Notes under the pieces: generated by a model | What the model saw: the letters and a program-made list of their open reading frames with translations, nothing else | Told to the model about the DNA's origin: nothing | The model's database searches: none | Assembly (NCBI GenBank): GCA_000004985.1 | Contig: GG738929.1 | Length of the DNA stretch: 64,000 bases | From: Naegleria gruberi | Taxonomy: Eukaryota | Direction: 5' to 3' (one strand) | Program-made: the position numbers and the translations under genes | In this document: one piece after another, positions 43,642-60,460 of the stretch | Position numbering within the stretch: position 1 is the stretch's first letter | Layout of the letters: each line of letters begins with the position of its first letter

Positions 43642-46600
43642 TTATTGAGCTTCAACTTGACCGCCTAAACATTTAATCAAATAATCAATCATTGAGAAAC
43701 TACTCATTTCTTCTACTAGAAGATTTGAATTCAATTCCTTCAATCGATTTGTTGCTTGTTTCAAATGAATAACAGATTCAGAATATTTGCTTGAATCTTT
43801 CTTTCCGCTTTGGAGTGTTTCTTTTGCCCATTGAGAAAGAGGATACATTCCATCATCACTCTTATCATTCTCAGTAACATTAGAAAGGAAATTGTCAAAT
43901 GATGTTTCTTCTACTTTACCATAGAGATTAGGATAATTTGTCTTTAAGTGATTTAGTAACTCTTCGTGAGTTGGTGGATTAGTATTGCAAATGTGAATAA
44001 TTTCCAAATCAAATAATTTGAATCGAGTGGAATTGACAATGATTTTGCTTACAAAGTCAACATTCACCAAGTTTCTAACAATTTCTAAATTTGGAGTACT
44101 GTTAGTTCTCTTAATTGATTTTAACATTCTTTCCAATAGAAAACCTTTTGGCATTTCACCTGTTTCATTTCCAATAATTAAACCAGGTCTCACAATCAAT
44201 ATTGGTAATCCCAAAATGTCTTTGGCTTGTTTCAACAAACACTCGGATGCAAATTTCGTTTGAGGATATCCGAATGTGAGATTCATTTCTGATAGTGTTG
44301 AAATCCTCTCTATTGGTTGACCTGAATCCTTATCCAAAGGTGCAGCAGATATTGAACTAACATATAGCAATGGCTTGACCCTACTCTGAAATGAAAACTC
44401 AATCATTCGTCTTGTTCCATCAACATTCGATTCTTTCAAAGATGAAAATGGTTGAATAAAATTCACAACAGAACCACCATGATAGACAACATCAACATTC
44501 CGAGCCAATTCATCATAGGTTGCTCTGTCCATTCCAAATAAATCCAAGCCAACATCTCCAACAAGTACTTGAACTCTGCTAATATATTCATTCTTCCAAA
44601 GTGAATACTTTTTCATGTTATCTATTAATCTCTTAGTTGCATGATCAATACTATTACCTCTACAAATACAATAGACCATTTTCAATTCTTGTAATTCTAA
44701 TAAATCTCTTAATAGGAAGGCACCCAGAAATCCAGTAGATCCAGTTAAGAGAACTTGTTCATGAATGAGTGGTTGACTGGAAGAAATACTTTGTGGAAGG
44801 GATTCCTTTGATTTTTCCAAATATTTCATTATTTCTTCATTGACAACAGGTGTTAATAATTCAGATTGATTGATTGCCTCAATGAGTTTCTTTGGAGTGT
44901 TCATCTTGTATACTTCATCAACACTCAGTTGAACATTGAATTCATTCTTGATATAATTTCTTAATTTGATCAATGAAATTGAATCTAATCCAATATTAGT
45001 AAGTGATGTATTCAGTTCAATTGCATTTTCCTCGTTTATAAATATTTGCTTATTCATAAATTCGAGAAATTGTGAAGGTTCTGCAATTTTAGAAGCTTTC
45101 TTACTTGATTGAGGTTTCTTTACCATAATATTTTCATTCTCATTAGCAGAGGATGAAACATTGTAAAGTGAATCAATAATATTCTTGAATACTTGTTCAG
45201 TTTTAGATCTAGAAACAAGTCCTTTCAAACTACTGGTTGGAATACTATCATTGGTTAGCAATATAAAATCCACAATTCTAGAATGGAATGGAAGTCTATT
45301 ATTCATTTCAATAATTTGCTCACTAATCTTTTCCTTAATATTATTAGGTTTCTTTTTAGGATCAATTTCAATCAATGCCACACAGAAAGGTCTATTATGA
45401 CCAATGACAGCACTTCTAACAACGGATCCATCAAATGAATCAATTTCATTCTCAATTGGTACTGGATTAGTCATTTCACCATTAGTATGACAAAGAATAT
45501 TATCAGATCGGGTATTATAGAAATAGTGATCTTTAGGATACTCAAAAAATAAATCATGAGTACAGAATATACCATCTACCCAAAACTTTGTATTATTAAT
45601 GGACATGTAATCCAATGCACATGTTGGGCAACCCTTCTTTAGATTCAATAAATAACACTTTTCCATTTCATAAGGTTGCCAAACAATGTACTTTTCTGGA
45701 ATGACACATTTCATTGATTTGAATGCGCCAGTGAACGGATCAGCTGCCATTACAACACCTACCTCACTCATTCCATATCCATTTGTTATGTTAATTCTAT
45801 GATCTTGGCAATAATTGATGAGATGATTTGGAGTAGAAACTCCACCAAGAGCCACAACCAGACATTCAGATAATAGTTTAGTCTTTTCCTCTGATTCCAT
45901 TATTTCTTCCAATAAAATTGGAAATACAATGGCTCTAGTGGATGGTAAATGTTCCTTATGGCTCAACAATACCTGACTGAGTGTTTGAGAAATACTTTGT
46001 CTAGTTGTCTGATTAAACATTATATAATTAGTACCCTTGTAGAGACAACCCAACAAGTTATATAATCCCATTAAGTGAAATAATGGTAGAAAGTTGATAA
46101 CATATTGTTGACTTGTCGTTCCAATGGATTGTGAATAGTGAAGACTTGACATTAGTGATCTCATATTGTGAATTACTATTTTAGGAATATTAGTACTACC
46201 TGAAGTGTTCAAATAAAAGCATGGATCTTCAAATTTGAATGGTAATTTCAGTGCTTGTTTCAAATCTTCATCACTGATTGTAGTATCTAATTGATCTTTG
46301 ATAGCTGAAATAATGTCGAATGGTTTCAGATAGGAAGAATATTCATGTTTCTCATAATCTTTCAATTGTTGTGAAATGTCTGATGTGATCATGTATTTAT
46401 CGGCTGTTTTAAAGAATGTATCCATACTCTCCTTATCACTTGCTTTAATCATTGAATCTAGAATCTGGGGAGATAAACTAACATATTTCACATTTCCCAA
46501 TTCGAGTAGTTTTGAAATAATTCCAGGAGTCAATTTGTTATTGACTGGAAAATTAATACAACCCAAAGTCCATAATGCAAACAGTAATACAGAGTAGACT

Positions 46601-46902
46601 ATTGAGTTTTCATGTAACAAAGCAACGCAAGAACCTTTCTTTAAACTTGGCCATTGCTTCATGATTAATCTTCTGGCCATTGCAACTGATTTGGAAAATT
46701 GACCAAATGTTAAGGTTGATATTTCCAATTTGTAATCTAATGGTAATTCACCATCTGTGATCACTCTTGTGAGGAAAGTTGATTGAGAATTGTTCAAACC
46801 ATAATGTTCTACAAGTTCCAATAAGTTAAAGAATGGTTTCCTATTTAAAGGCCATTCAACTTGAATTCCTTCGTGGTCTATAATTTCTGTTGACTGACTC
46901 AT
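43642..46902 (-). CDS. NRPS-like adenylation–thiolation–reductase enzyme (A-PCP-R). It is either a carboxylic acid reductase or an alpha-aminoadipate reductase of the Lys2 class.
   Basis: The AMP-binding core motifs are LNTSGSTNIPK (A3) and GYGMSEVG (A8 region). The phosphopantetheine attachment site reads NIGLDSISLIKL. The thioester-reductase NAD(P) fold reads VLLTGSTGFLGAFLL. It is a single exon with an ATG at 46902. Confidence 0.85.
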   Translation of the reverse strand: MSQSTEIIDHEGIQVEWPLNRKPFFNLLELVEHYGLNNSQSTFLTRVITDGELPLDYKLEISTLTFGQFSKSVAMARRLIMKQWPSLKKGSCVALLHENSIVYSVLLFALWTLGCINFPVNNKLTPGIISKLLELGNVKYVSLSPQILDSMIKASDKESMDTFFKTADKYMITSDISQQLKDYEKHEYSSYLKPFDIISAIKDQLDTTISDEDLKQALKLPFKFEDPCFYLNTSGSTNIPKIVIHNMRSLMSSLHYSQSIGTTSQQYVINFLPLFHLMGLYNLLGCLYKGTNYIMFNQTTRQSISQTLSQVLLSHKEHLPSTRAIVFPILLEEIMESEEKTKLLSECLVVALGGVSTPNHLINYCQDHRINITNGYGMSEVGVVMAADPFTGAFKSMKCVIPEKYIVWQPYEMEKCYLLNLKKGCPTCALDYMSINNTKFWVDGIFCTHDLFFEYPKDHYFYNTRSDNILCHTNGEMTNPVPIENEIDSFDGSVVRSAVIGHNRPFCVALIEIDPKKKPNNIKEKISEQIIEMNNRLPFHSRIVDFILLTNDSIPTSSLKGLVSRSKTEQVFKNIIDSLYNVSSSANENENIMVKKPQSSKKASKIAEPSQFLEFMNKQIFINEENAIELNTSLTNIGLDSISLIKLRNYIKNEFNVQLSVDEVYKMNTPKKLIEAINQSELLTPVVNEEIMKYLEKSKESLPQSISSSQPLIHEQVLLTGSTGFLGAFLLRDLLELQELKMVYCICRGNSIDHATKRLIDNMKKYSLWKNEYISRVQVLVGDVGLDLFGMDRATYDELARNVDVVYHGGSVVNFIQPFSSLKESNVDGTRRMIEFSFQSRVKPLLYVSSISAAPLDKDSGQPIERISTLSEMNLTFGYPQTKFASECLLKQAKDILGLPILIVRPGLIIGNETGEMPKGFLLERMLKSIKRTNSTPNLEIVRNLVNVDFVSKIIVNSTRFKLFDLEIIHICNTNPPTHEELLNHLKTNYPNLYGKVEETSFDNFLSNVTENDKSDDGMYPLSQWAKETLQSGKKDSSKYSESVIHLKQATNRLKELNSNLLVEEMSSFSMIDYLIKCLGGQVEAQ

Positions 46903-48332: not shown

Positions 48333-50081
48333 ATGTTTTTTGATAATGATACTCTATTTGTCATTTTCCATTACATGACTCCGTGGAATTTATTATTTAC
48401 AACCAGTAGAGTTTCTAAACAATGGAAATATGTTTCCTCACTCATTCCGATCCATTTAAAATTTAATCAATTTAATACTTTTCATCAAATCATGATGATG
48501 AAATTTATTACTACTCATCATCTAATTGATGATCATCAGATGAATGAAAATAATTCTTTTAAAATTGTGGAATTAAATTTAATGAACATGTATATTAAAA
48601 AGGAAAATATTCATTTATTATATGAACACATTAATGTATTGAAATGTTCATTAACGAGTTTGAGTTTACCAAGACTTTTACCGAGAGATGTTTTGGAGAA
48701 AATTTCAGAAATTGAAATGGAACACTTGACACAATTAATGATTGATGGATGTGAAATGAATTTAGATTGTACATTATTTTGTAAATTTAAATTAAAACAA
48801 TTGAGATTAACAGAGATTATAACAGTGGAAGCATTTTCTGCTCTTGCAAAAAATGAAAATTTGTACAATTTAACAAGTTTAGACTTGTCTATTTCTCAAT
48901 CTACCGTTGAAAGCATTGAAATATTGAGTAATAGTTTAATATTTAGTAATTTAACATGTTTAATTATGGAGCATAATCATATAGATGATGAAATGGTTAA
49001 AATTCTAACAAAATGTAAATATTTATCAAAAATAAGGAAATTGAATTTATTTGCAAATGATATTGGAAATGTTGGACTACTCCACATATCATCTTGTGAA
49101 TATTTGAGGCAATTAAATCATTTAGATTTGAGGAGAAATTCATTTACTGATATTGGAATCGGCTATTTGAGTAATAGTTCAAATATGCAAAATTTAGAAT
49201 ATTTGGATTTGAGTAGAAATGTATTGAGTGGTGATAGTGCTATATTATTATCAAATAGTCAATATTTAACAAATATTAAATCAATTAATCTAACTTCTAA
49301 TAGTTTAGGATATTCATGCGTTAAGGAAATTTCTAAATTTAAACAATTGGAAGAATTGAAATTATGTAATAATGATCTCAACCAAGAATCCATGGAAATT
49401 ATTTCCAAATCCTTCACAAAATTGAAAGTTTTAGATTTGAGTGATAATCCAATTATGGAAGGTGCTTCGCATCTTCAAAATTTACCAAATTCCAATTTAA
49501 TTCATTTAGATCTATCGCTTTGTAAACTTCCAATCAAATGTATTGTTGATTTATCAATGAGTGATTCTATATTGAATGTAAAGAAGCTATATTTGGGATT
49601 TAATCAAATTGGAGATGAAGGTGTCATGTTAATTTCGTCTAGTCTTTACAATCTCACTCATTTGTTTCTTCCATTTTCGAATATTACATCAAGAGGTGTA
49701 AAATATTTATGTGATGGAGTGTTGGATAGAATTGAATTGTTGGATTTGGCAAATAACATGATAGGAAATGAAGGATTGACCTACATTTCACAATGTAATA
49801 ATTTTTCCTATTTGGAATATCTATATTTGGATATTAATATTTTAATAAGTGATTTGAGTGAATTATTGTTTGTGAATGGAAATTTACAAAATTTAAAACA
49901 TATTTCAGCTAGAAAATGTATGATTGTTAAATTAATTGAGAAATCTGATGAAAATATTTCTTTGCCATTATTGGAATTTCTCGATATTTCAAAGAATAAG
50001 TTTGAGAAGAGTGAACTTTCTAAATTAATGAAGAAAACTTCAATTCTGCCTTGTACTCTTTCTCTAGTCATTTTGTATTAA
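48333..50081 (+). CDS. F-box / RNI-like leucine-rich-repeat protein
   Basis: An N-terminal F-box-like motif (LFVIFHYMTPWNLLFTTSRVSKQWKYV) is followed by about 20 LRRs of the L..LDL..N.I type. The ATG is at 48333. Confidence 0.7.
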   Translation: MFFDNDTLFVIFHYMTPWNLLFTTSRVSKQWKYVSSLIPIHLKFNQFNTFHQIMMMKFITTHHLIDDHQMNENNSFKIVELNLMNMYIKKENIHLLYEHINVLKCSLTSLSLPRLLPRDVLEKISEIEMEHLTQLMIDGCEMNLDCTLFCKFKLKQLRLTEIITVEAFSALAKNENLYNLTSLDLSISQSTVESIEILSNSLIFSNLTCLIMEHNHIDDEMVKILTKCKYLSKIRKLNLFANDIGNVGLLHISSCEYLRQLNHLDLRRNSFTDIGIGYLSNSSNMQNLEYLDLSRNVLSGDSAILLSNSQYLTNIKSINLTSNSLGYSCVKEISKFKQLEELKLCNNDLNQESMEIISKSFTKLKVLDLSDNPIMEGASHLQNLPNSNLIHLDLSLCKLPIKCIVDLSMSDSILNVKKLYLGFNQIGDEGVMLISSSLYNLTHLFLPFSNITSRGVKYLCDGVLDRIELLDLANNMIGNEGLTYISQCNNFSYLEYLYLDINILISDLSELLFVNGNLQNLKHISARKCMIVKLIEKSDENISLPLLEFLDISKNKFEKSELSKLMKKTSILPCTLSLVILY

Positions 50082-50327
50082 GGTTTTTTCAGAACTATGT
50101 TTTCGATCTTAATATTTTTTTTAGTATTATTTAGCATTGCACTGCAAGCCATAAACTTATTCATCATGTGGATTTTATAAAGATTTATCATTGCTTTCTG
50201 TGATAATTATTGCTCAGCTCTTTCAAATCATTCAAGGCTAATCCGAATGACAAGATGGAAATAATCCTTATGGCGATCAACCAGAATCTGTCTATCCTGA
50301 TATCTGCTCAAATTTAATTCTTCATGA

Positions 50328-52301
50328 TTAAATGCAATATCTTTTCACAAGGGATGAATCAATTTCAACCTTGAATAATATTTTGAAGAGAAAGCTGTGA
50401 GTAATTCTTTCATCGTTAACAAAGTGTATTGATGAATGATTACACAACAATGCACTAATGCAGAACATGAAATCTTCCTTAAGGAATGGAGATGCATCAG
50501 AAAATGCATACTCATAGGAGAGTATGGCAGCCTTGACAATGTCAGGATTACTTTTCAATCTTGGAGAGGCAAATTTGAGTGCCATTCCACTATTCTTACA
50601 TGCCGTCATGATTACTTCAAAATCATCACACAGTGGAGGGTCTGCATATTGTAATGTGTATGGATAATGTTTCACAGCATGAAGTAGCAACTCTCTGTCA
50701 GTAATTGTACTTGGATATTTGTTGAAAAAGTCGGCACTCTTTTCAACAGATGACCAAATCAATTCCTTGTCGGCTCTTAGACTTTCTGGAATGACATCCA
50801 GGTGATCGGTTCCATATTTTTTAACAATCATCATAATTAGCTCTCTATCATTTCTAAAGGATGAATCAAGGAACTTGAATAGGCATGGATTATTCTCCAC
50901 AATTTCAAAAATTAAATTTCTATCCAATTTCAACTCTGGAGTTAAAAACTTGTAGGCATTTGGTGAATATTTAAGAACCTTTTTTAGGAAATCCAAGTCC
51001 TTGACTAATTCAGGGTTCAGAAACTTTGTTCCTTCATTTGGTTTGTATTTTATGTATGCCAACAATACTTCCTTGTCGTTTCTGATATGTTTAGGCAATT
51101 TCTTATATTCTATAGCATTAAAAACTTGCATGACAACTTCTTTATCATTCCACAAATCCTCAGAGAGTTCATAAATAGAAACTTCAAATTCTGGTACCAT
51201 TTTAAGTATTAATGATCTATTACTGGATATTCTTCTTTCTATTTCATCAAAGACATGTCTTGGGTGCGATGATAAGTGAGCTCTTATTACTTCTTCATCA
51301 TCCCACAGTTGATGATCTGTAACTTGGCTTAGAATAAAATCATGATCTGATGAATCTGAAACCCGTAGACAACTCAGCAAAATTTCTCTATCATTGAAGC
51401 ATGATTTTTCTAAATAATAAATAGATGACCCATTTCTGGCTATGAGTGTTTTAGCTACCTGTTTGTAGTGTGGATATTCTAGTGGAAGACAAGATAAAGA
51501 TAAGTTTTTTTCCATGGCAACTTGAACTAGTTCATCAAAAAATGGCAGGTCAACTGGAACATATTTAAGATGATTACTATTTCCAGAGATTGCTTTCAAT
51601 AAAATATCATAATCCAGGGCATGTTTGGTATTTTTGATATGACCATAAGGATGGTTCTCCAACACGATCAATAACAAATCCTTTCTTTCACATATCAAAT
51701 CACTAGGAAGATAAGAAAGTGATATTCCACTCTTCACACACTCCTCAATAATGTCCAAATCTAGTGATTTGTAAACACCTGCTTTTAAGTAATTCAACTT
51801 TCCATGTTGTGCCAATTCCAAAACAATTTCCTTATTATCCTTAATTTCTGGATAAAATATGCCAACATTCAGTCCGTTGGACAAACAAGCTGCGATTCTA
51901 ATATCAATGTCTCTTTTCAATTCATTTGGAAGATAATCGAAAATATAACCATAAACACTGAGAGCTAACAGGGCAATATCCTTTCTCGTTTTTAAATGTT
52001 CGGGTATTTTGGAATAATTGAACCCATCCGATTCAATTGCTAGTTTGACAATTGTTTCATCATTTTTCAATCTTTCAGAAATAAATTCAAATCCACTAAA
52101 ATACTTTTTTGAACATGCCATTAATACAATTTCTCTGTCATCTCTCAATCTTTCAGAACAGAATTGAAACGCCAATGGTGCATGTTTAATGGCCAACTCG
52201 ACCACTTGTCTATCATCTTTCCAATGACTTGGAGCATATTTCAATACGTATGCGTTATGGGATACTAGCAATTTAATGACATGTTTGTAGTAATTGACCA
52301 T
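50328..52301 (-). CDS. DUF4116-like repeat protein (about 25 tandem repeats of roughly 26 aa). A possible upstream exon lies at 52366..52542.
   Basis: The repeat unit is of the form KNDREIVLAAVKQNG.AL.YA. The ATG is at 52301. An upstream ORF with a real ATG at 52542 could splice in through a GTATGG donor and a TTGCTAG acceptor (64-nt intron). This is unverified. Confidence 0.6.
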   Translation of the reverse strand: MVNYYKHVIKLLVSHNAYVLKYAPSHWKDDRQVVELAIKHAPLAFQFCSERLRDDREIVLMACSKKYFSGFEFISERLKNDETIVKLAIESDGFNYSKIPEHLKTRKDIALLALSVYGYIFDYLPNELKRDIDIRIAACLSNGLNVGIFYPEIKDNKEIVLELAQHGKLNYLKAGVYKSLDLDIIEECVKSGISLSYLPSDLICERKDLLLIVLENHPYGHIKNTKHALDYDILLKAISGNSNHLKYVPVDLPFFDELVQVAMEKNLSLSCLPLEYPHYKQVAKTLIARNGSSIYYLEKSCFNDREILLSCLRVSDSSDHDFILSQVTDHQLWDDEEVIRAHLSSHPRHVFDEIERRISSNRSLILKMVPEFEVSIYELSEDLWNDKEVVMQVFNAIEYKKLPKHIRNDKEVLLAYIKYKPNEGTKFLNPELVKDLDFLKKVLKYSPNAYKFLTPELKLDRNLIFEIVENNPCLFKFLDSSFRNDRELIMMIVKKYGTDHLDVIPESLRADKELIWSSVEKSADFFNKYPSTITDRELLLHAVKHYPYTLQYADPPLCDDFEVIMTACKNSGMALKFASPRLKSNPDIVKAAILSYEYAFSDASPFLKEDFMFCISALLCNHSSIHFVNDERITHSFLFKILFKVEIDSSLVKRYCI

Positions 52302-52667
52302 ATCCCATCACATCGTCCCCTTCCATACAGAGTGGAAACAAATCCTTCTCCAATTCGGTGAGTGATTCCACTTCAGATAAAACCTTTTCATGAGTGAAGA
52401 GAAATTTAATGTACTCTCGGAGGGGAAATATCTTTAGAAGGAGCTTGGTTTCTTGAATGTATTTTGAACGGAGGAGGAAACAACGAGGTGTTTCATCCAG
52501 AAGGATTCTCACTGCAGGTTGTATTATTTGAACTAGAGACATTTTTTGAATCAAAAAGTTTAATTCAGATCTGAAATTTACACTCCCAAATTCAGTTCAA
52601 TTCTAAAATCCATTATTGTTATTATTGTATGAAATTTGAGTTTTACAATTTACATTACAATAATATG

Positions 52668-54212
52668 CTAATAGTAACAATCGTCAAAAATATCATCTCC
52701 ATCAAGTTCCTCAACTTTCTCAATACCATTTGTGAATGTGAATGGTTTCTTGTTTGCTCCACTCTCATCATTTCTTGAAGAGTAGAAATAATCTTGGATA
52801 TTAAAGAGTTTACGTTTGTGAGTCATAGCATATGAAGCCATAAATTTCACAATATTAATTGGATCATTTGTACCATTTCCTAATATTTTCCCAATCATTG
52901 ATAGATATTCTGATTCAACATTATTGGTGGGCTCATCAAATCTACTCTTTTCAGAACAGTTTTGATAAATGTAAACTGAATCTTTTGGATTATTGAAATA
53001 ACATTCGAGTCCAACATCAACAAAATCATCATCTCCAGTATAGTTTTCACATTCATATTTCAAAGAAAAGAACTTGTACTTTTCTTGGAGACTTCCTCTG
53101 ATCCTTATATCAAATTCAACTTTTTCATAACAGTTCTCCTCATTAAAAATTCGAACAACAGTCACAGGAGAACACCAAGTAACATTTTTGAAAGCTGGTG
53201 ATGGAGCTTGAAGAGTTTTAGCTATCCTTGTTGATGATAAATTGTTGGCAGAGAATCGCACAAACTTCAATATTGAATTAATTGATTTTTTTGGGATTTT
53301 ACACATCTTATCAATTAGATCTGAGGCAAATTGGATTCCTTTCTTGCTTGGAACATTTTCGCACCACCCAAACTTATCAACCCTCTCTAGTATGTTACAG
53401 CCAGGTGCTTTTGTATATGCTTCAATCAATGATTGATAAATTGTATCCATATTCTTCTCTGGAAGCAGAGTTTTAATTAATGCTTGTATATTTCCCCTAA
53501 CACCGAAGGCAGTTGTTTTCAATACAGCATCTAACCCACATTTGTCAATATCTATTTCTTCCAAACTGGCTTTTTCATAATGAATAAGAACTCTATTATT
53601 ACATGAAATGACAAATGTTGAAAGTAAGTGATTAAAAGATCGAAAAGTAGCATAATCTATCTTGATCAATAAATACTGATTCGAATCTCTTACAAGGAGT
53701 TTCTTAATTGAGGAAGTGAATGAAGAATTTCCTGTTTTAACAACATTAAAGCAAAATAAGCTTCCTAAATTCTTGTCTATCATTATATTTTCCTTAATTT
53801 CCTTGTCCAAAATTGCAATTTCAGCATTTAATCTATAACATATTCCAAGAAAGAAGTTTCTCGTATCTACCTCTGAAGTAAATTCTCTACATGCTTCTTT
53901 CATTAACATTGCAATCTTTCTTGATTGATAATGATATAAAAAATTATCCCCATCCATAATATTCCTAATTGATGTACAAGTTGCATACAATGAACATTGT
54001 GTATCCAAAGAGGAAAAACTACAAATTTCGTCCAAAATTCCTAATTCCATCGGAAAACATTTTGTCATCATTGAATTATTAGCTGCTGCTGCGGATGACA
54101 CTGCAGAGGAATTCAATAATGGAGTTGGTGATGATGATTCATTAGAGATCTTTGCAATTTTTTGCCCTTCATATCCAGAGTTAGATTCAGCCTCTGATGA
54201 TGTTCTTTTCAT
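52668..54212 (-). CDS. Hypothetical protein with an N-terminal F-box-like motif
   Basis: The real ATG is at 54212; the track start codon is GTG. LGILDEICSFSSLDTQCSLYATCTSIRN is F-box-like. The rest is unrecognised. Confidence 0.45.
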   Translation of the reverse strand: MKRTSSEAESNSGYEGQKIAKISNESSSPTPLLNSSAVSSAAAANNSMMTKCFPMELGILDEICSFSSLDTQCSLYATCTSIRNIMDGDNFLYHYQSRKIAMLMKEACREFTSEVDTRNFFLGICYRLNAEIAILDKEIKENIMIDKNLGSLFCFNVVKTGNSSFTSSIKKLLVRDSNQYLLIKIDYATFRSFNHLLSTFVISCNNRVLIHYEKASLEEIDIDKCGLDAVLKTTAFGVRGNIQALIKTLLPEKNMDTIYQSLIEAYTKAPGCNILERVDKFGWCENVPSKKGIQFASDLIDKMCKIPKKSINSILKFVRFSANNLSSTRIAKTLQAPSPAFKNVTWCSPVTVVRIFNEENCYEKVEFDIRIRGSLQEKYKFFSLKYECENYTGDDDFVDVGLECYFNNPKDSVYIYQNCSEKSRFDEPTNNVESEYLSMIGKILGNGTNDPINIVKFMASYAMTHKRKLFNIQDYFYSSRNDESGANKKPFTFTNGIEKVEELDGDDIFDDCYY

Positions 54213-54414
54213 TTTTTTTTTATTGTTTATTTCCAGATAACACACAACATTCTCGACATTCTTTGATGTTCCAATTTCAATTTGATTGTAAACAAGAGTA
54301 AAAAAATTGAAGATGAGTTGAAAATCTATTTGTGTTAATATAGATTGAAGTAAATAATGGTGATTTAAAAAACACTAATATTAGAATGAATATTAAAAAA
54401 CCAATTCAAAGAAA

Positions 54415-56388
54415 ATGTACTCACTGCACCAACACACTACTCAAGATGAATGTAATGATCATTCACATTCTGATACCTTCTTCGATGATAATAGTACTAT
54501 TGAGTCATTGCTCAATGATGATTTGTTTTCACACCTTGCTGGCAATACTCAAGCACCATCAGAGAGTGGAGTTTCTAATTCTTGTCATGATTTTGAAGAT
54601 GATAACGATGATAATGAACGAGTTGACAATGAAGAAGAAAGTATGCCACCTTGTAAACACCTAACACCAGATGCAAAGAAGGAGAAGGAGGAATTTGTTG
54701 CTAGAAAATTAACAGAAGAGGAAATTCCAATGGAAAGAACAATATTTTGCAGTAATTGTACTTCATGCACTTCATGTGTCTGTCAGAAGAATAAGCTTCC
54801 CTGTACAGTTAAATGTGCATGTCAAATTAAATGTAAAAATTTGAGAAAAGAAGTACTAACTGATAATTGGATTCAACACAAAACCTTACCAGAAAGAAAT
54901 ATTGAAAGTCCACTAATAGTTGGTCCAATTAATGTGAAACAAGATTTATCCATAAAGGAATCATTTCAATTGATTTGGACACCTGATATTATAGAACACA
55001 TTTATGAGAGAACCAATAGAAAGTTTGAATATTGGCAAATTTACTCAGATGAGATTAAAATGTATAAACTTGCAATTAAAGACAAATCCAAAAAGAGAAA
55101 GAGAATGAACAATAACACTAATCCATCTGAATCCATTGAATTATGTTCAGATATCGAATATGATCAGCCAGTTAGAACTCCAAAAAAGATATTTCCTGAT
55201 TTTGATGAATATTTCACAAAATGTAAAACTGAAAACAAAATATTAGAAGAAAAGTTTTCAAGAAAGCAAATTACTAACTTTTTAAATATTTCTATATTGA
55301 TGAATACTACATGTAAAATTCCAAACATTTGCAATTATTGGACAATATCAGGACTTGATGCAGCCCTTTATGGAAATGGAATATTCAGATATTTAATGAG
55401 TAGATCAATGTTTAATCAAATCAAGCAGAATTTAACATGTGACTCTGATTTTTTGGAAATGAGAGTGAATGAGAATTCTAGAAAATTTTGGAAATGTTTC
55501 AAAGAAATTTCAGTGGATGAAATAATTGCTCCTTTCAAGGGAAAGATTAGTGACAAACAGTTTCTCCCCACCAAACCTCACAATTATGGATTGAAATATT
55601 ATACACTATCTGATTGGGTTGGGTATGTTTATGCATTTTGGTTGTCAAAACACGAACATAAATCAGATAAAATTGTTTTAGATCTTATTGAGCATATTGA
55701 TGATCCACAGAATCATATTTTAGGTGTCGACAATTATTATGGATCATTAAATTTAGCAAATCAATTATCAGAAAAAGAATGGAATTATGTCATGACAGTG
55801 AGGGCTAATAGACCAACATTTCTTTTCAGTGATGGATTGTTGAAACATCTCAAAAGAAGCAAAACTAAAAAGTGGACTCAAGCTGTCCATAAAAACAATC
55901 ACATGGCTGCTGTTTCTCTCAATGATCACAAAAAGGTTAATTTTTTAACTAATTTGGGAAGTAATCAAACATTTCATTCACAACCACTTGTTCAGAAATA
56001 TGAAAGAATGGGTTGTGTTGAATTGTCTGGAATCAATCTTTACAAAATGGATGTTCCCTTCGAGGTAAATAATTGGAAAATCATCCATCTCTTTGAAGTT
56101 CTACGTATAGCTCTCGTTAATCAATATTTAATTTATAAGCATGTTAGAAACTTAACTAATTTGACCCTCAATGAATATTTGCAAGAGGCAACATTATCTC
56201 ATTGTGAATCCACCAACCCAAATTTCAAAAGAACAATACATTTCCCATCCAGTGTCAAAACTCGTGGACTTTGTGAGCATTGTAAGAATTTTCATTCTCT
56301 CACTCCTATCAAATGTCCTGCTTGTAATTCCTACCTTCATCAAAAGTGTTTTGTAGATTTTCACCTTAAAAAACACATTTATTATTAA
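54415..56388 (+). CDS. piggyBac-transposase-derived protein (DDE_Tnp_1_7-like core, C-terminal Cys-rich zinc finger, extra N-terminal CxxC-rich region). It could be domesticated or the ORF of an element.
   Basis: The core blocks are WTPDIIEHIYERTN, IAPFKGKISDKQFLPTKPHNYGLKYY and GVDNYYGSLNLANQLSEKEWNYVMTVRANRPTF, matching the DNFFTS...GT.R.NR block. The C-terminus CEHCKNFHSLTPIKCPACNSYLHQKCF is a piggyBac-type CRD. The 657-aa ORF is intact. I did not verify TIRs or TTAA target sites. Confidence 0.7.
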   Translation: MYSLHQHTTQDECNDHSHSDTFFDDNSTIESLLNDDLFSHLAGNTQAPSESGVSNSCHDFEDDNDDNERVDNEEESMPPCKHLTPDAKKEKEEFVARKLTEEEIPMERTIFCSNCTSCTSCVCQKNKLPCTVKCACQIKCKNLRKEVLTDNWIQHKTLPERNIESPLIVGPINVKQDLSIKESFQLIWTPDIIEHIYERTNRKFEYWQIYSDEIKMYKLAIKDKSKKRKRMNNNTNPSESIELCSDIEYDQPVRTPKKIFPDFDEYFTKCKTENKILEEKFSRKQITNFLNISILMNTTCKIPNICNYWTISGLDAALYGNGIFRYLMSRSMFNQIKQNLTCDSDFLEMRVNENSRKFWKCFKEISVDEIIAPFKGKISDKQFLPTKPHNYGLKYYTLSDWVGYVYAFWLSKHEHKSDKIVLDLIEHIDDPQNHILGVDNYYGSLNLANQLSEKEWNYVMTVRANRPTFLFSDGLLKHLKRSKTKKWTQAVHKNNHMAAVSLNDHKKVNFLTNLGSNQTFHSQPLVQKYERMGCVELSGINLYKMDVPFEVNNWKIIHLFEVLRIALVNQYLIYKHVRNLTNLTLNEYLQEATLSHCESTNPNFKRTIHFPSSVKTRGLCEHCKNFHSLTPIKCPACNSYLHQKCFVDFHLKKHIYY

Positions 56389-56601
56389 ACAATTAAATCA
56401 AAGATATTTAGATTTCAATAAAGTATTGAATCTTAATACTTTTTGCCATCAAAACCTTCAGTTTAAGCGACTAGAAAATAGGGGGAACCTTTGCCAATTT
56501 TTCAATACCAAACAAAGGGATAAAAACAGTTTAATAAGTATTAAGTTATTTAATAAAATACTTTTAAGCAATCAAGATCTTGTTTTCAATCTATGACTAA
56601 G

Positions 56602-56606
56602 AAAAA
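56602..56606 (-). terminator. Pol III oligo-T terminator of the 5S gene
   Basis: A TTTTT run lies directly 3' of the 5S end on the minus strand. Confidence 0.5.
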
Positions 56607-56724
56607 GACTACAGCACCACAGGTTCCCAAGTTGTCTCCAACCTCAGTACTGATGTGGCTCGACGATGCTTAACTTCTCAAATCGGACGGGATGAGGTGC
56701 ATGAATCGTGATATGGCCGTAGCC
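56607..56724 (-). rRNA. 5S ribosomal RNA, dispersed copy
   Basis: The minus-strand sequence GGCTACGGCCATATCACGATTCATGCACCTCATCCCGTCCGATTTGAGAAGTTAAGCATCGTCGAGCCACATCAGTACTGAGGTTGGAGACAACTTGGGAACCTGTGGTGCTGTAGTC (118 nt) matches the 5S consensus. Helix I pairs, and a T5 run follows as a Pol III terminator. Confidence 0.85.
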
Positions 56725-56780
56725 ATTTCCTATCATTAAATCTTAATTTTGAATAAGAATATTACTGATTTTTAAATCTA

Positions 56781-57266
56781 ATGTTTTCGTCTATGAATTC
56801 TATCTATTCTAACAATATTCTTTTCAATTTACAATTAAGACGGGAAGCCTGCCAGGAATATGGCGACAATCCCGCTACAGTCTTTGACTGTATGAACAGT
56901 GAAGGCAACGATCTTGCGATAGTTGGTTTGTTCAATTTGGTTGAGGAAATTAAGAAGATAACTGGCCTACTATTTATTTGTTGGCAATTAGCAAAGTTCT
57001 TCTTAAATTTTGGTTTGATTCTTTCACAAGATCAAATTTTGAATGCTATTGGTAAACCAGTCTTATCATTTGTTGTTGCAGATTTCGAAGATTCTGATAT
57101 GGAAGAAGTTTATCCAAACGAACCAGTTTCTTTGAAGGAAGGAGAAATTTTCAAATTGTATGGTAAAATCAAAAACTCTGGAAAGGAAACAGCTAAGGTT
57201 GCTGTATCTTTCAGATATGGTTCAAAGATTTATCACATTCAAGAACTTGATATTCCAACAAGTTAA
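56781..57266 (+). CDS. Hypothetical 161-aa ORF with a GC-rich 5' part whose codon usage is atypical for this genome
   Basis: An ATG sits at 56781. The segment 56838-56930 is GC3-rich (cgg gcc tgc cag ggc gac ccc), unlike neighbouring genes. The C-terminal half looks beta-rich. No domain recognised. Confidence 0.3.
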   Translation: MFSSMNSIYSNNILFNLQLRREACQEYGDNPATVFDCMNSEGNDLAIVGLFNLVEEIKKITGLLFICWQLAKFFLNFGLILSQDQILNAIGKPVLSFVVADFEDSDMEEVYPNEPVSLKEGEIFKLYGKIKNSGKETAKVAVSFRYGSKIYHIQELDIPTS

Positions 57267-58527
57267 CCGAGTTGATACAAATAAACGGTGAGACGGGCAA
57301 CGGGATGAACGGGATTCAGGCCGTTTCTTATTCTAAACGGGAGATTCTCTCCGCTTAATACTACAAGCTGGCAATTCAAATATGGAGAGAGAGCTTAGTA
57401 ACATTAATAAAATGAATGAGACATAATTACTTTTTGAATTTTCCTTTTATATTTGAAACTTTGACTCTGCTTACTTTCAATTGTTTGTTTAATATGGCTT
57501 GCTTGACTGAAGAATAAGCAATAACTAACACATCCAAACATCACCAAATTGGTCTGACTGGATTTTGAAGAAAAAATATTTCAACATCTAGTACGTGATG
57601 TACTTTGATGATTTACGGAGTGGTTTCACATCTTTATACCACAATAATTTCAGCCCTTCATCTATACATCATCTATATAATAGTAGTAATAATGATTTTT
57701 ATTGGAAAATTATCATCATGAAATTAGAAATCATTTTTCATCATGGAAAAATTGATGTTGGTGATACCATCATCTGATCATTCACCAACCATCATCAATG
57801 ATATTTTCCATCGATATAATAATAGTATTTAGTTATGATAGGGAAAGGTATGTGTGAAATTTGAAAATACACATGTATACTACCCATCATGTACTTCACC
57901 AAATCAAAAAGTTTCTTCTAGTAGTACTATTTAAATTGATAATAAACATCATATTTATTATAATTTATTCCTGTTCTTTTGTGTTGGTCAGGTTCCTGTT
58001 TGGTTGACTAAGAATTGGTTATTTACTCGCCCAAATTAAATTTCCAAATCGTGCAGCTTTCCCATGTATTAGTAAATATCAAATTAATAATAAATTTCAC
58101 TTTTTTTTTAATTTTTTATATAAGGCATTCCTTAACACTCTTTTTTTCCCTTAATTCTGAATAACTCTTGGATCAGATGACGAAACTTGAATTTTTTGAA
58201 TAATTATGGATATATATAAATAATGACAATGCTACTAACTGTAATTGGCATGTTTTATTCTTTGCGAATAAACTTGAAACAAATCTATTCAAAGATTTGC
58301 TAATTTGTTAGTTGAAATTACAAAATAAAACAACGAAACTTGAAATGATAACATACATGAATGCACACATCGAGTGGGGAAAGTTTCATGAAATAATAAT
58401 GTGAAATTTGATCTTGGGAATGAAATCGCTAAGAACAAGTAGATTAAATCCAACAACAAATGGAATCAATTAGAACAATTTTAGAATGTTACTGTGTTAT
58501 TGAGCTTAATATCCATTCTTAATTCCG

Positions 58528-58622
58528 TTTCTTACTTCAGACTGCCCCGTTGGACAGTTTCTTACTTGAGGCGGATTCCGTGAGACTGTGTGTTCCGTCA
58601 CTCCGTTTCTTAGTATTCACTC
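58528..58622 (+). promoter_or_regulatory. Triplicated GTTTCTTAC/GT-containing motif just upstream of the ATG at 58635
   Basis: TTCCGTTTCTTACTTCAG, GACAGTTTCTTACTTGAG and CTCCGTTTCTTAGTATTCACTCAG lie within about 95 nt. The patch is locally GC-richer than its surroundings. Confidence 0.25.
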
Positions 58623-58634
58623 AGTGTCCTAACA

Positions 58635-59144
58635 ATGTTCCTGAAGAGGCTGCCATGCCAACTTTGTGGGCTCAACAAAAGATTGACTCTCTCTCTGCAT
58701 TCCCTCAACTGTGCACAAGAAGCTAAAGATAAGCAAGAAAAGGAAAAGTTAGAAAGAATTATTAGTATGTGGAAGGAAAGAGTTAATTGGCATAAGACTG
58801 ACTTTAAATTACCTGAAGAAAAGCCAGAAAAGGAAAAGAAAAAGTTGGCTGCAATGGATGACTGTATTTCTGAATCTCTCTCTGTACAATCCTCTAGTTT
58901 GGATCGTTGTTGTAGATGTGAGGAGAATAGAGAATGTTGCAGACGTTCTTGTGCACCATCTCCAAGTTGTGCTAGAGGTTGTTGTTGTCGTTCTGCTAGT
59001 CCTTCTTTGAGTTGTTCAGATATCAGTTCAGGTCCACCACCACCTTCTGGAGGTGCAGGTAGTCCACCACCTCCTTCTGCTAAGTCAACAGCCTCTCAAG
59101 AAGAACCTAGTGTTGCTGGTACCATTCCATCTGGTAATTCATAA
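58635..59144 (+). CDS. Dubious Cys/Pro-rich ORF that overlaps the 3' end of the actin-like fragment on the opposite strand
   Basis: An ATG sits at 58635. The 169 aa carry a CCRCEENRECCRRSC block and PPPPSGGAGSPPPPS. They are low-complexity and partly antisense to the actin-like ORF. Confidence 0.2.
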   Translation: MFLKRLPCQLCGLNKRLTLSLHSLNCAQEAKDKQEKEKLERIISMWKERVNWHKTDFKLPEEKPEKEKKKLAAMDDCISESLSVQSSSLDRCCRCEENRECCRRSCAPSPSCARGCCCRSASPSLSCSDISSGPPPPSGGAGSPPPPSAKSTASQEEPSVAGTIPSGNS

Positions 59145-59785
59145 GAAACATCAGTCAGTGCCTTTTCATTTTCCTGTTCAAAATCCAATGCAACATAGCA
59201 AATATTATGCTTAATATCTGTCATGACATCTGTTGGATGCTCTGCAAAATATGGTATTTTACATCCAACAAATGCTTGAACCAAATATTCAGTAATTTCC
59301 CTTCCAGCAAAATTCCAACTTGAAATGGCATGTGTCAAGGCATATCCTTCATAGACAGGAACAGCTCTTGATACCATCTCTCCCAAATCCAAAACAATTC
59401 CACTTGTCTTGCCAGATGCAAACAATGCCAACACTCCTTGCATTGCCACATAAAAATTTGATATATTAAACTCCTCAAACACGATCTGCGTCATCCTCTC
59501 TCTATTACACTTTGGTTCCCTCACTGCTTCACTCATCAAGATTGGATGTAATTCTGGCCTGCATCTCAATTCTTCATAAATGGTTTGTCTCCAAACTAGT
59601 TCCATATCAGATATGTTGGTAATGACACAATGTTCAATTGGATATTTCAATGTACAGATACCTCTCTTAGCAATGGCTTCATCACCAACTACAGTGGTGC
59701 TTGTTGATTTCTTGTGATGGCCAACTATGGTTGGAAAGATTGATGTCGGAGTATTGTCTTGTTCATTTGCTATTCCTACTTTCAT
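59096..59785 (-). pseudogene. Divergent, truncated actin-like gene fragment, equivalent to about actin residues 20–250. It is a probable pseudogene or a decayed actin-related gene.
   Basis: FPTIVG...VGDEAIAKRGICTLKYPIEHCVITN...MTQIVFEEFNISNFYVAMQGVLALFASGKTSGIVLDLGEMVSRAVPVYEGYAL...ICYVALDFEQE...YELPDG follows actin colinearly. It lacks the N-terminal DNGSG phosphate-1 loop, the phosphate-2 DSGDGVTH motif is degenerate (DLGEMVSR), and the frame ends 9 codons after PDG, with the actin-like continuation in the +1 frame. Confidence 0.6.
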
Positions 59786-60460
59786 ATTACAAGATCAGTA
59801 AATAAATATCTCAGTTTAGTTTCTGAATAAAAAGTTGAAACCCAGTGTCAGGACTTGAACCTGAATTATGTGATTTGGACTTGTTGTTTAAGTATCGTCA
59901 GATTCACATGTCTTTCATTAGACTACACAGGGTTGAGTGGAATTGTTTTTTGGGTTTGATGTGTTGGCTGTGTTCAAGGATTATGAATCAGATTTTTGGT
60001 TTCAATGAATTAACATTTTCCAAATTTACCTTTCAAAGTTTGTTAAAAATCGGATTTTTGTGGCTTAATAATATCAGAGTTGTTTCTTAAGGAATGAAGA
60101 AATGTTGTTTACCCCCGATTATTTCGTAATTTTCTGACAACCATACGCCCCTAAATGAAAAGATAGATTTCTGCACCTCCTTCACCACCTCAAACTATAA
60201 TTCATGTCTCTTCCCCATCGTTTTCGGTTGTTTTAAAAAAAAGACAAAAAATAACTTGAAACCTCACTCCTTACCATTATTAAGCATTTTTCATCATTAT
60301 CACACCATCAAAAATGTTGAACACCCACTAGTAATGTTCTTCTACATGGTTTTATGTAGAAACCATCTAAAATTCATCTTCACTAGCCCAAAAAATTCAT
60401 TTCCTCTGTTGAAGAATATTTTCTGGTTTCTTTTTTTCTGTTCGGATTACAATTAAAAAA

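What the first reader, a model, noticed from the sequence alone, without database searches (positions are those of the whole stretch)
54415..56388. Intact piggyBac-derived transposase ORF with an additional CxxC-rich N-terminal region
All recognisable piggyBac core blocks and the C-terminal zinc-finger CRD are present in an uninterrupted 657-codon ORF. The N-terminus carries an extra Cys-rich segment (CSNCTSCTSCVCQKNKLPCTVKCACQIKCKN). If the catalytic DDD triad is lost this is a domesticated PGBD-like gene. If it is intact and flanked by TIRs plus TTAA, it is a possibly active element.
Basis: partly seen in the sequence, partly recalled or inferred. Interest (0 to 1): 0.55.

Follow-up and report, generated by a model that had tools for sequence, protein, structure and literature searches.

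The report
One-ended piggyBac transposase copy in Naegleria
This is a full-length copy of a piggyBac-type "cut-and-paste" transposon gene in the amoeba Naegleria gruberi; its extra cysteine-rich module is normal for its transposon family, and this copy has lost one transposon end and changed a catalytic residue, so it is probably stuck in place rather than active or clearly co-opted by the host.

Summary
54415-56388 (+) is an uninterrupted 657-codon piggyBac transposase ORF (Pfam PF13843, E=1.6e-33; predicted fold matches piggyBat/piggyBac) with a C-terminal Cys/His finger and an N-terminal Cys-rich module.

The window is Naegleria gruberi. The ORF belongs to a heterolobosean piggyBac subfamily that always carries the nine-Cys "CXC-like" module, found in 12 relatives.

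The family is a real TTAA-specific transposon. N. lovaniensis has an intact copy with TTAA|CCTTT…AAGGG|TTAA ends. N. fowleri has at least 3 copies at 96-98% identity, all broken. Acrasis kona has a TTAA/TIR-bounded copy. N. gruberi has a second copy, 88% identical over its 126-aa C-terminal fragment.

The window copy differs in three ways:
- The third catalytic Asp is Glu (D368, D439, E536). This change is derived. In T. ni piggyBac it cuts excision to 0.3-8% of wild type.
- The family-type right end is present (56476-56519) but is flanked by ATAA.
- No left end exists.

Best reading: an immobilised, catalytically weakened copy whose ORF is still intact. Nascent domestication is not excluded, because an ORF this long rarely stays open under neutral drift. 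A 21-nt inverted repeat bracketing the ORF and a 5S rRNA gene is unexplained.

The parts
54415..56388 (+). Intact 657-codon piggyBac-like transposase ORF (ATG to TAA).
54415..54714 (+). Acidic N-terminal region, aa 1-100, predicted disordered (25 D/E against 7 K/R). It cannot be aligned between species.
   Evidence: pLDDT below 50 for residues 1-100; composition; alignment.
54748..54870 (+). CXC-like nine-cysteine module, aa 112-142, plus the conserved Trp152. Probably a Zn-cluster DNA-binding domain.
   Evidence: Eight Cys columns plus N and W are invariant across 13 family members, and the remaining Cys is present in every member but shifts by one alignment column. Sub-threshold Pfam TCR/MSL2-CXC hits in relatives. 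hhalign to the LIN54 CXC domain gives probability 60%, E=8.5e-5.
55249..56121 (+). DDE_Tnp_1_7 catalytic core (RNase H-like), aa 279-569.
   Evidence: fold match.
55516..55518 (+). Catalytic Asp 1, D368 (GAT), equivalent to T. ni D268.
55729..55731 (+). Catalytic Asp 2, D439 (GAC), equivalent to T. ni D346.
56020..56022 (+). Third catalytic position, E536 (GAA), where the family has Asp (T. ni D447). The substitution is derived on this copy's lineage.
   Evidence: Functional analogy from PMC2533014.
56272..56364 (+). C-terminal Cys/His cross-brace-type finger (CRD), aa 620-650.
   Evidence: Conserved pattern in the alignment; coordinates; pLDDT about 88-93.
56476..56519 (+). Family-type right sub-terminal block and right terminus (…GGGGGAACCTTTGCCAATTTTT…CAAAGGG). 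It is homologous to the right ends of the N. lovaniensis and N. fowleri elements.
   Evidence: Local alignment reached by 1 of 300 shuffles. GGGGGAAC is unique in the window and lies at the equivalent place in L001. It is the only right-type end in 56380-60000. Ends compared.
56520..56523 (+). ATAA at the position where the family has the duplicated TTAA target site.
54362..54382 (+). Left arm of a 21-nt inverted repeat, GATTTAAAAAACACTAATATT, at -53 to -33 from the ATG. It contains a TTAA. Its role is unresolved.
56758..56778 (-). Right arm of the same inverted repeat (19 of 21 matches), at -54 to -34 from the 5' end of the 5S rRNA gene. It lies outside the family-type right end.

Best explanation
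The ORF is a full-length but immobilised copy of a piggyBac-like transposon family that is resident in heterolobosean amoebae (Naegleria, Acrasis).

How the family works (inferred from homology to T. ni piggyBac): it is a TTAA-specific cut-and-paste element about 2.7-4 kb long with TTAA|CC[CT]T[TC]… termini. It encodes one protein with four regions: an acidic disordered N-terminus, a nine-Cys CXC-like zinc module, an RNase H-like DDD catalytic core, and a C-terminal Cys/His finger (CRD). The CRD, and probably the CXC module, bind the transposon ends. The DDD core cuts and rejoins DNA at TTAA.

How the N. gruberi window copy differs (shown):
- The third catalytic Asp is now Glu (E536).
- The right end is recognisable, but its flanking TTAA reads ATAA.
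- The left end is gone. Only about 170-200 bp separate the ATG from a divergently oriented host gene.

Consequence (inferred): the copy cannot be excised in the canonical two-ended reaction. Its protein is probably a weak or dead nuclease that can still bind DNA. The ORF is still open either because immobilisation was recent or because some selection preserves it.
For: Family identity:
- Pfam PF13843 at E=1.6e-33, and a fold match to piggyBat and piggyBac.

The family is a true transposon:
- N. lovaniensis L001 has TTTCC|TTAA|CCTTTACGCC…GGCGGAAGGG|TTAA|GGAAA around an intact 663-aa DDD ORF. The element is 2749 bp.
- N. fowleri has at least 3 loci at 96-98% nt identity. One is complete with TTAA on both sides (CACG|TTAA|CCCTTCAGC…GGAAGGG|TTAA|AAGA). 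All are frameshifted or truncated.
- Acrasis kona has TTAA|CCTTCTGACAAC…GTCGGCAGAAGG|TTAA.
- The N. lovaniensis genome paper lists 29 PiggyBac repeat fragments (PMC6125883).

Genome of origin and copy number:
- The window is N. gruberi; two neighbouring genes are 100% identical to N. gruberi proteins.
- A second N. gruberi copy (P0009, EFC35242.1) is 88% identical over the C-terminal 126 aa and keeps Asp at position 3.
- No synteny exists between the three species' loci.

Catalytic change:
- E536 is derived.
- Among relatives covering this position, 67 have D and one has E.
- D447E in T. ni piggyBac gives 0.3-8% of wild-type excision (PMC2533014).

Ends:
- Right-end homology.
- No left-type end in 50000-54420, and a single right-type end, AAGGG|ATAA.
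Against: - An immobile copy's ORF is not protected by transposon-level selection. A substitution-only simulation keeps this ORF open in only 28%, 8%, 2% and 0.1% of runs at 1, 2, 3 and 5% divergence. The N. fowleri copies are all broken at 2-4% divergence. Immobilisation must therefore be recent, or the ORF is under host selection (rival 1).
- The left end could have diverged beyond recognition rather than been lost. Non-coding similarity between these species is near background.
- The effect of D-to-E is inferred from a distant homolog and was not measured here.
- A statistically non-random 21-nt inverted repeat containing TTAA brackets the ORF. This explanation does not account for it.
Confidence: 0.5

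Rival explanations
1. Nascent domestication. After losing its left end, the copy was retained by N. gruberi as a host gene, for example a DNA-binding regulator, a repressor of the resident piggyBac family, or a low-activity nuclease. It would be driven by the short host-type divergent promoter region.
For: - The ORF of 657 codons is intact although one end is lost, the flank reads ATAA and D has changed to E. Neutral survival of the ORF is unlikely beyond about 1-2% divergence.
- The N. fowleri copies at 2-4% divergence are all broken.
- All other near-invariant family residues are retained: D368, E369, G376, K387, P388, G392, K394, D400, D439.
- The CXC and CRD cysteines are intact.
- The layout is compact and host-like: about 170-200 bp to a divergent neighbour, and a 3' region of 131 nt against about 510 nt in the mobile copies.
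Against: - No syntenic ortholog exists in N. lovaniensis or N. fowleri; their copies are TIR-bounded transposons elsewhere in the genome.
- A diverged paralog exists in the same genome.
- No dN/dS, expression or population data are available.
- The ORF is absent from the N. gruberi protein set, while both neighbours are present.
- Window-lineage changes at conserved positions outnumber paralog-lineage changes 3 to 1. This fits relaxed constraint equally well and is not significant.
Confidence: 0.3
2. A still-mobile element with non-canonical ends. The 21-nt inverted repeat would be the TIR pair: GAT|TTAA|AAAACACTAATATT at 54362-54382 and AATATTACTGATTT|TTAA|ATC at 56758-56778. This would define a 2.4-kb TTAA-flanked element carrying the transposase ORF and a passenger 5S rRNA gene.
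For: - 19 of 21 positions are complementary. This was reached in 2 of 1000 Markov-random sets and 0 of 620 real same-geometry positions in the window.
- The motif occurs nowhere else in the 64 kb.
- Each arm contains a TTAA at the mirrored position.
Against: - The family-type right terminus, homologous to N. lovaniensis and N. fowleri, lies 239 nt inside this putative end and before the 5S gene.
- The putative TIR starts with AAAAC, not the family-wide CC[CT]T[TC].
- Both arms sit at the same distance and in the same orientation upstream of a transcription unit: -53 to -33 from the ATG, and -54 to -34 from the 5S 5' end. This fits a promoter-type element or a local duplication at least as well.
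- E536 argues against efficient catalysis.
- No 5S gene accompanies the N. lovaniensis or N. fowleri copies.
Confidence: 0.08
3. A transposase source acting in trans. The copy cannot move itself, but it would supply weakly active transposase that mobilises other N. gruberi copies or non-autonomous derivatives that retain both ends.
For: The ORF is full-length with intact CXC, core and CRD. At least one more copy exists in the genome. D447E in T. ni piggyBac retains measurable residual excision.
Against: Selection cannot maintain an immobile source copy through its own transposition. Residual activity of a D-to-E enzyme is low. No MITE-like derivatives with family ends were found in the 64-kb window.
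Confidence: 0.1

Closest known systems
piggyBac-like elements (PBLEs): T. ni piggyBac (PDB 6x67) and bat piggyBat (PDB 9c0f)
   Same: DDE_Tnp_1_7 core above Pfam threshold and the same predicted fold. Catalytic D1 and D2 are conserved. A C-terminal Cys/His CRD is present. At family level the elements have TTAA target duplication and short TIRs beginning CC[CT]T.
   Different: About 16% identity to the solved transposases. Position 3 is Glu in this copy. [quoted passage not shown] The protein has a structured N-terminal nine-Cys module, whereas PBLE N-termini are described as unconserved (PMC5381638). This copy has one end only.
Domesticated piggyBac genes: vertebrate PGBD1-5, ciliate PiggyMac and TPB2
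   Same: A transposase-derived ORF without a complete pair of transposon ends, sitting in a host-gene-like context. An N-terminal accessory domain is fused to the transposase, as with the SCAN domain in PGBD1 (PMC5381638).
   Different: Those genes are conserved at orthologous loci across species and are under documented purifying selection. Here there is no syntenic ortholog. The N-terminal module is ancestral to the mobile family, not a host exon capture. Mobile relatives still exist in sister species.
Tesmin/TSO1/LIN54 CXC domain (Pfam PF03638; PDB 5fd3) and MSL2 CXC domain (PF16682)
   Same: The Cys spacing C-x-C-x6-C-x3-C-x-C-x2-3-C-x-N aligns in register with the second LIN54 CXC repeat (hhalign probability 60%, E=8.5e-5). 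Pfam TCR gives sub-threshold hits in 4 of 6 family members, and MSL2-CXC in one. From general knowledge, these domains form Zn3Cys9 clusters that bind DNA.
Cys-rich 'CxC' modules of fungal Kyakuja-Dileera-Zisupton transposases (recalled from memory, not tested here)
   Same: The concept is the same: a Cys-cluster DNA-binding module fused to a eukaryotic DNA transposase.
   Different: It is a different transposase superfamily. No sequence comparison was made here.

Membership tests
piggyBac superfamily transposase | Significant match to the DDE_Tnp_1_7 (PF13843) profile over most of its length | tested here: met
   E=1.6e-33, 116.9 bits against a 22.4-bit cutoff, profile positions 33-347 of 349.
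piggyBac superfamily transposase | RNase H-like fold with insertion domain, as in solved piggyBac and piggyBat | tested here: met
   AF2 model with pLDDT 79.5. Foldseek top hits are 9c0f at E=1.8e-18 and 6x67 at E=1e-17.
piggyBac superfamily transposase | Catalytic DDD triad (T. ni D268, D346, D447) | tested here: not met
   The residues are D368, D439 and E536. Among aligned relatives, 67 have D at position 3. The paralog P0009 and N. lovaniensis have D.
piggyBac superfamily transposase | [quoted passage not shown] | tested here: met
   C-x2-C-x10-C-x2-C-x5-H-x2-C-x4-H at aa 620-650 aligns with the CRDs of P0003-P0006. Caveat: Pfam PF13842 was not reported for this protein.
Autonomous, mobile piggyBac-like element | Two terminal inverted repeats of the family type | tested here: not met
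   The right end is present at 56476-56519. No left-type end exists in 50000-54420. The 5' flank shows no significant similarity to N. lovaniensis or N. fowleri left ends, or to the copy's own right end.
Autonomous, mobile piggyBac-like element | TTAA target-site duplication on both flanks | tested here: not met
   The right flank reads ATAA at 56520-56523. The left flank is undefined. At family level the feature is met in N. lovaniensis, N. fowleri L004 and A. kona.
Autonomous, mobile piggyBac-like element | Multiple related copies in the genome | tested here: inconclusive
   There is no second copy in the 64-kb window. One further annotated N. gruberi fragment is 88% identical, but its scaffold and the whole genome could not be searched.
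Domesticated piggyBac-derived gene (PGBD-like) | Conserved at an orthologous (syntenic) locus across species | tested here: not met
   The N. lovaniensis and N. fowleri homologs have different neighbours and no shared flanking genes within 10 kb either side. The upstream neighbour has no cross-species ortholog for an empty-site test.
Domesticated piggyBac-derived gene (PGBD-like) | Loss of transposon ends with retention of the ORF | tested here: met
   The left end is absent, the right end is degenerate and the ORF is intact. This is also compatible with a recently immobilised copy.
Domesticated piggyBac-derived gene (PGBD-like) | Purifying selection (dN/dS below 1) and expression | not testable with these tools
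   The paralog's DNA is not retrievable, the cross-species comparisons are saturated (39-45% aa identity), and no transcript data are available. There is only an indirect argument from ORF-survival simulation.
Tesmin/TSO1-type CXC domain (PF03638) | Profile match above the Pfam gathering score | tested here: not met
   The window segment gives no hit. Relatives score 10.8-17.1 bits against a 23.5-bit cutoff.
Tesmin/TSO1-type CXC domain (PF03638) | Nine conserved Cys with CXC spacing, in register with a solved CXC domain | tested here: inconclusive
   Eight Cys columns plus N are invariant in 13 sequences, and the ninth Cys is present throughout but shifts by one column. hhalign to LIN54 (5fd3, verified) gives probability 60% and E=8.5e-5 over 25 columns. 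Cys-rich composition can inflate such scores.
Tesmin/TSO1-type CXC domain (PF03638) | Zn3Cys9 cluster fold | tested here: inconclusive

The most novel reading that the evidence does not exclude
Heterolobosean amoebae carry a previously undescribed piggyBac subfamily in which a CXC-type Zn-cluster domain, of the kind that reads specific DNA motifs in LIN54 and MSL2, is built into the transposase N-terminus. It would act as an extra module for recognising transposon ends or targets. The N. gruberi copy would be caught in the act of domestication: ends lost, nuclease attenuated by D536E, DNA-binding modules and ORF preserved, and a 21-nt upstream element shared with the neighbouring 5S rRNA gene acquired as a promoter.
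Probability: 0.2. Interest if true: 0.5.

Novelty: new variant of a known kind. Interest (0 to 1): 0.3.

Why it matters
**Genome annotation.** This 657-aa ORF is missing from the N. gruberi protein set. Its N. fowleri relatives are annotated as several separate 'hypothetical proteins' that are really fragments of one decayed transposon.

**Transposon biology.** The conserved CXC-like module shows that some piggyBac lineages carry a structured N-terminal domain. The N-terminus of piggyBac transposases is otherwise described as unconserved and unalignable (PMC5381638). If the module binds the conserved sub-terminal block, it would be a second DNA-recognition device beside the CRD. That would be of interest for engineering target or end specificity.

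**This copy.** It is a modest but clean example of the grey zone between a dead transposon and a domesticated gene.

**Overall.** None of this is surprising in kind. PiggyBac repeats are already listed for Naegleria genomes (PMC6125883).

Tried and rejected
- **Second 657-aa ORF at 50328-52301 (-).** It looked like a possible paralog but is unrelated. It is a DUF4116 repeat protein, and the equal length is a coincidence.
- **Synteny with N. lovaniensis and N. fowleri.** tblastn of all window ORFs against L001 and L002 found no shared neighbours. The apparent DUF4116 match upstream in both loci is not orthology.
- **5S rRNA as a synteny marker.** There is no 5S gene in L001 or L002.
- **N. lovaniensis TIR sequence in the window.** Matches were at chance level, 5 against 2.9 expected, and none lay near the ORF.
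- **Left-end searches.** I tried local alignments of the 5' flank to the L001 and L004 left ends and to the copy's own right end. All were non-significant. A degenerate TTAA plus CC[CT]T[TC] search gave only one implausible site, inside the upstream gene.
- **Paralog scaffold.** Retrieval of the N. gruberi scaffold carrying P0009, and of any contig encoding the exact window protein, failed because neither is on record.
- **Empty-site test through the upstream neighbour.** Its only homologs are N. gruberi paralogs.
- **Metagenome scan for close relatives.** None were found.
- **Polarised substitutions.** The count of 3 to 1 is too small to be significant.
- **Bacterial promoter and terminator scan.** It is irrelevant for a eukaryote and was at background level.
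- **Literature.** No paper in the searchable library describes a piggyBac-CXC fusion or links Naegleria 5S genes to transposons.
Full report
**1.

- The ORF listing returns an ATG-initiated ORF at 54415..56388 (+) of 657 aa. The other five frames of the same DNA contain 36-91 stops.
- Pfam gives DDE_Tnp_1_7 (PF13843) at E=1.6e-33, covering aa 279-569 and profile positions 33-347 of 349.
- A sequence search of the PDB finds only T. ni piggyBac 6x67, weakly (E=1e-3).
- An AlphaFold2 model built on a 43-sequence family alignment is confident: pLDDT 79.5, pTM 0.74, with residues 1-100 disordered. Its best structural matches are piggyBat 9c0f (E=1.8e-18) and piggyBac 6x67 (E=1e-17), followed by Tn5.
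The C-terminal Cys/His finger is aa 620-650.

**2. Genome of origin and context**

- The window is about 32% GC and densely coding.
- Two neighbouring ORFs are 100% identical to Naegleria gruberi predicted proteins on a 189,881-bp contig: the NRPS-like reductase at 43642-46902 and the gene directly upstream at 52671-54212. The window is therefore N. gruberi.
- The transposase ORF itself is not in the protein collections.
- It lies head-to-head with the upstream gene, with about 170-200 bp between the two start codons.
- A 5S rRNA gene lies 217 nt downstream of the stop codon, on the minus strand at 56606-56724 (100 bits).

**3. The family is a real, mobile piggyBac lineage**

The closest proteins are from N. 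lovaniensis (P0001, 663 aa, 45% identity) and N. fowleri (P0002, 39%).

- *N. lovaniensis.* The ORF sits in a 2749-bp element with a 30-nt, 90% inverted repeat and canonical piggyBac ends: TTTCC|TTAA|CCTTTACGCCTAACGAAAAAT … ATTTTTCGATAGGCGGAAGGG|TTAA|GGAAA.
- *N. fowleri.* Three loci on different contigs carry copies at 96-98% nucleotide identity.
  - L004 is complete: CACG|TTAA|CCCTTCAGC … GGCGGAAGGG|TTAA|AAGA.
  - L003 has lost its right end.
  - L002 is truncated on both sides.
  - All three are frameshifted or interrupted. The longest open stretch is about 315 aa.
- *Acrasis kona.* The homolog P0014 lies in a 4-kb element with ends TTAA|CCTTCTGACAAC … GTCGGCAGAAGG|TTAA.
- *Published annotation.* The N. 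lovaniensis genome paper reports 29 RepeatMasker 'PiggyBac' fragments (PMC6125883).
- *Synteny.* The loci in the three Naegleria species share no flanking genes.
- *Divergence.* An ordinary neighbouring gene is only 44% identical between N. gruberi and N. fowleri. The transposase's 39-45% identity is therefore in the range of normal divergence in this genus.

**4. Copy number in N. gruberi**

- There is no second copy in the window.
- The exhaustive search of 1.84 billion cluster representatives found 2223 relatives at E<=1e-3.
- One of them is an N. gruberi protein, P0009 (EFC35242.1, NAEGRDRAFT_77104). It is 126 aa, lies on a 1190-bp scaffold, and is 88% identical to aa 532-657.
- Its DNA could not be retrieved.
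- N. gruberi therefore has at least two diverged copies.

**5. Catalytic residues**

- In alignments with the family and with 6x67, the residues are D368, D439 and E536. G539 occupies the D450-equivalent position.
- Across 156 aligned relatives, D1 and D2 are Asp in 137 each. Position 3 is Asp in 67 and Glu in one.
- The N. gruberi paralog, N. lovaniensis and an ENA relative all have Asp, so E536 (GAA) is derived on this copy's lineage.
- In T. ni piggyBac, D447E lowers excision to 4.4e-5 against 1.4e-2 in one assay and 2.4e-4 against 3.15e-3 in another. The authors conclude that Asp is specifically required at this position (PMC2533014).
- D450 is not conserved in PiggyMac or TPB2 (PMC5381638). 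Its absence from the whole Naegleria clade is therefore not diagnostic.

**6. Ends of the window copy**

- *Right side.* 56476-56502 aligns with the block just inside the N. lovaniensis right TIR: AAATA--GGGGGAACCTTTGCCAATTTTT against AAATACTGGGGGAA-CTTTTTCAATTTTT. Only 1 of 300 shuffles reached this score.
- GGGGGAAC occurs once in the 64 kb, and once in L001 at the equivalent place.
- The sequence then runs to CAAAGGG at 56519, followed by ATAA where the family has TTAA.
- This is the only right-type end within 3.6 kb downstream.
- The 3' untranslated part is 131 nt, against about 510 nt in the mobile copies.
- *Left side.* No TTAA-like plus CC[CT]T[TC] site exists in the 201-bp intergenic region. 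The only such site in the 4.4 kb upstream of the ATG lies inside the upstream gene's coding region and is implausible. The 5' flank shows no significant similarity to the left ends of L001 or L004, or to the copy's own right end.
- The copy is therefore one-ended.

**7. An unexplained inverted repeat**

- A 21-nt pair brackets the ORF and the 5S gene: 54362-54382 (GATTTAAAAAACACTAATATT) and 56758-56778 (AATATTACTGATTTTTAAATC). It matches at 19 of 21 positions.
- It is not a chance feature. It was reached in 2 of 1000 Markov-random sets and 0 of 620 real same-geometry positions, and the motif occurs nowhere else in the window.
- Each arm contains a TTAA, so it could be read as a TIR pair.
- Three facts argue against that reading:
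  - The family-type right end lies inside it.
  - The sequence does not start with CC[CT]T.
  - Both arms sit at the same distance and in the same orientation upstream of a transcription unit: -53 to -33 from the transposase ATG, and -54 to -34 from the 5S 5' end.
- A promoter-type element or a local duplication is at least as likely. I could not resolve this without the rest of the genome.

**8. The Cys-rich N-terminal module**

- It is conserved in all three Naegleria proteins. It is also present in A. kona and in unnamed assemblies: 12 of the 150 best relatives carry it, and many of the rest are N-terminally truncated fragments.
- In 13 sequences, eight Cys columns, an Asn and a Trp are invariant. 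The ninth Cys is present in every member but shifts by one alignment column.
- Pfam gives only sub-threshold hits to Tesmin/TSO1 CXC (PF03638, E 0.007-0.64, in 4 of 6 relatives) and to MSL2-CXC (E 0.034, in one). The window segment itself gives none.
- A family profile aligns in register with the second CXC repeat of LIN54 (hhalign probability 60%, E=8.5e-5). The LIN54 sequence was verified as PDB 5fd3.
- I therefore call it CXC-like. A role in DNA binding is an inference.
- I found no paper describing such a fusion. The main survey of the superfamily describes PBLE N-termini as unalignable and does not mention Naegleria (PMC5381638).

**9. Relic or domesticated gene?**

- A substitution-only simulation keeps this ORF open in 28%, 7.7%, 1.9% and 0.1% of runs at 1, 2, 3 and 5% divergence.
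- The N. fowleri copies, at 2-4% divergence, are all broken.
- An immobile copy cannot be preserved by transposon-level selection. The intact ORF therefore means either that immobilisation was recent or that the host selects for it.
- Evidence against domestication:
  - There is no syntenic ortholog.
  - Mobile relatives persist in sister species.
  - There is a paralog in the same genome.
  - Changes at conserved positions lean toward the window lineage, 3 to 1, which is not significant.
- dN/dS, expression and population data were not obtainable.
- My weighting:

| Reading | Weight |
|---|---|
| Recently immobilised, catalytically weakened copy | 0.5 |
| Nascent domestication | 0.3 |
| Trans-acting transposase source | 0.1 |
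| Still mobile, using the 21-nt repeat as TIRs | 0.08 |

**10. Verdict**

This is an ordinary kind of object, a piggyBac-like element. It has two mildly interesting aspects: a conserved and apparently undescribed CXC-like N-terminal module in its subfamily, and a copy that sits between a dead transposon and a domesticated gene.

Noticed in passing
window 56606-56724 (-): A complete 5S rRNA gene (Rfam RF00001, 100.3 bits) lies 83 nt beyond the transposon's right end, with a T-run after its 3' end. No 5S gene accompanies the N. lovaniensis or N. fowleri copies.
   Followed up: partly
window 54362-54382 and 56758-56778: The 21-nt motif GATTTAAAAA[A/T]CA[C/G]TAATATT occurs only twice in the 64 kb. 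It sits at the same distance (about -34 to -54) and in the same orientation upstream of the transposase ATG and of the 5S rRNA gene. It may be a promoter element, a local duplication or a TIR pair.
   Followed up: partly
window 59840-59932 (-): A 93-nt tRNA match in Rfam (43.2 bits) was not called by ARAGORN. It may be an intron-containing tRNA gene.
   Followed up: no
window 52668-54245 (-): The upstream neighbour (N. gruberi P0168, 514 aa, no Pfam domain) has homologs only within N. gruberi. One is a 480-aa protein on another contig (P0169) that carries DUF4116 and is 100% identical over 34% of the query. This suggests a segmental duplication or a chimeric gene.
   Followed up: no
window 54415-56388: This 657-aa ORF is absent from the N. 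gruberi protein set, although both flanking genes are annotated. It was presumably filtered out as transposon-related.
   Followed up: partly
L004 5835-8638 (N. fowleri VFQX01000068.1): One decayed but complete TTAA-flanked piggyBac element is annotated as two separate hypothetical genes (FDP41_009240 and the following 272-aa model). P0002 and P0008 are likewise fragments of pseudogenised copies.
   Followed up: yes
L001 9746-9754 and 12504-12512 (N. lovaniensis): The insertion site of the intact element is a perfect palindrome, TTTCC|TTAA|GGAAA. This hints at a preference for palindromic targets, or at a TIR that extends through the TTAA.
   Followed up: no
window 50328-52301 (-): This DUF4116 repeat protein has 10 repeats (E=7e-92) and is also exactly 657 aa, but it is unrelated to the transposase.
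   Followed up: yes
window 59096-59785 (-): A 229-aa ORF matches only part of the actin domain (profile positions 17-268 of 410). It may be one exon of an intron-containing actin-family gene, or a fragment.
   Followed up: no
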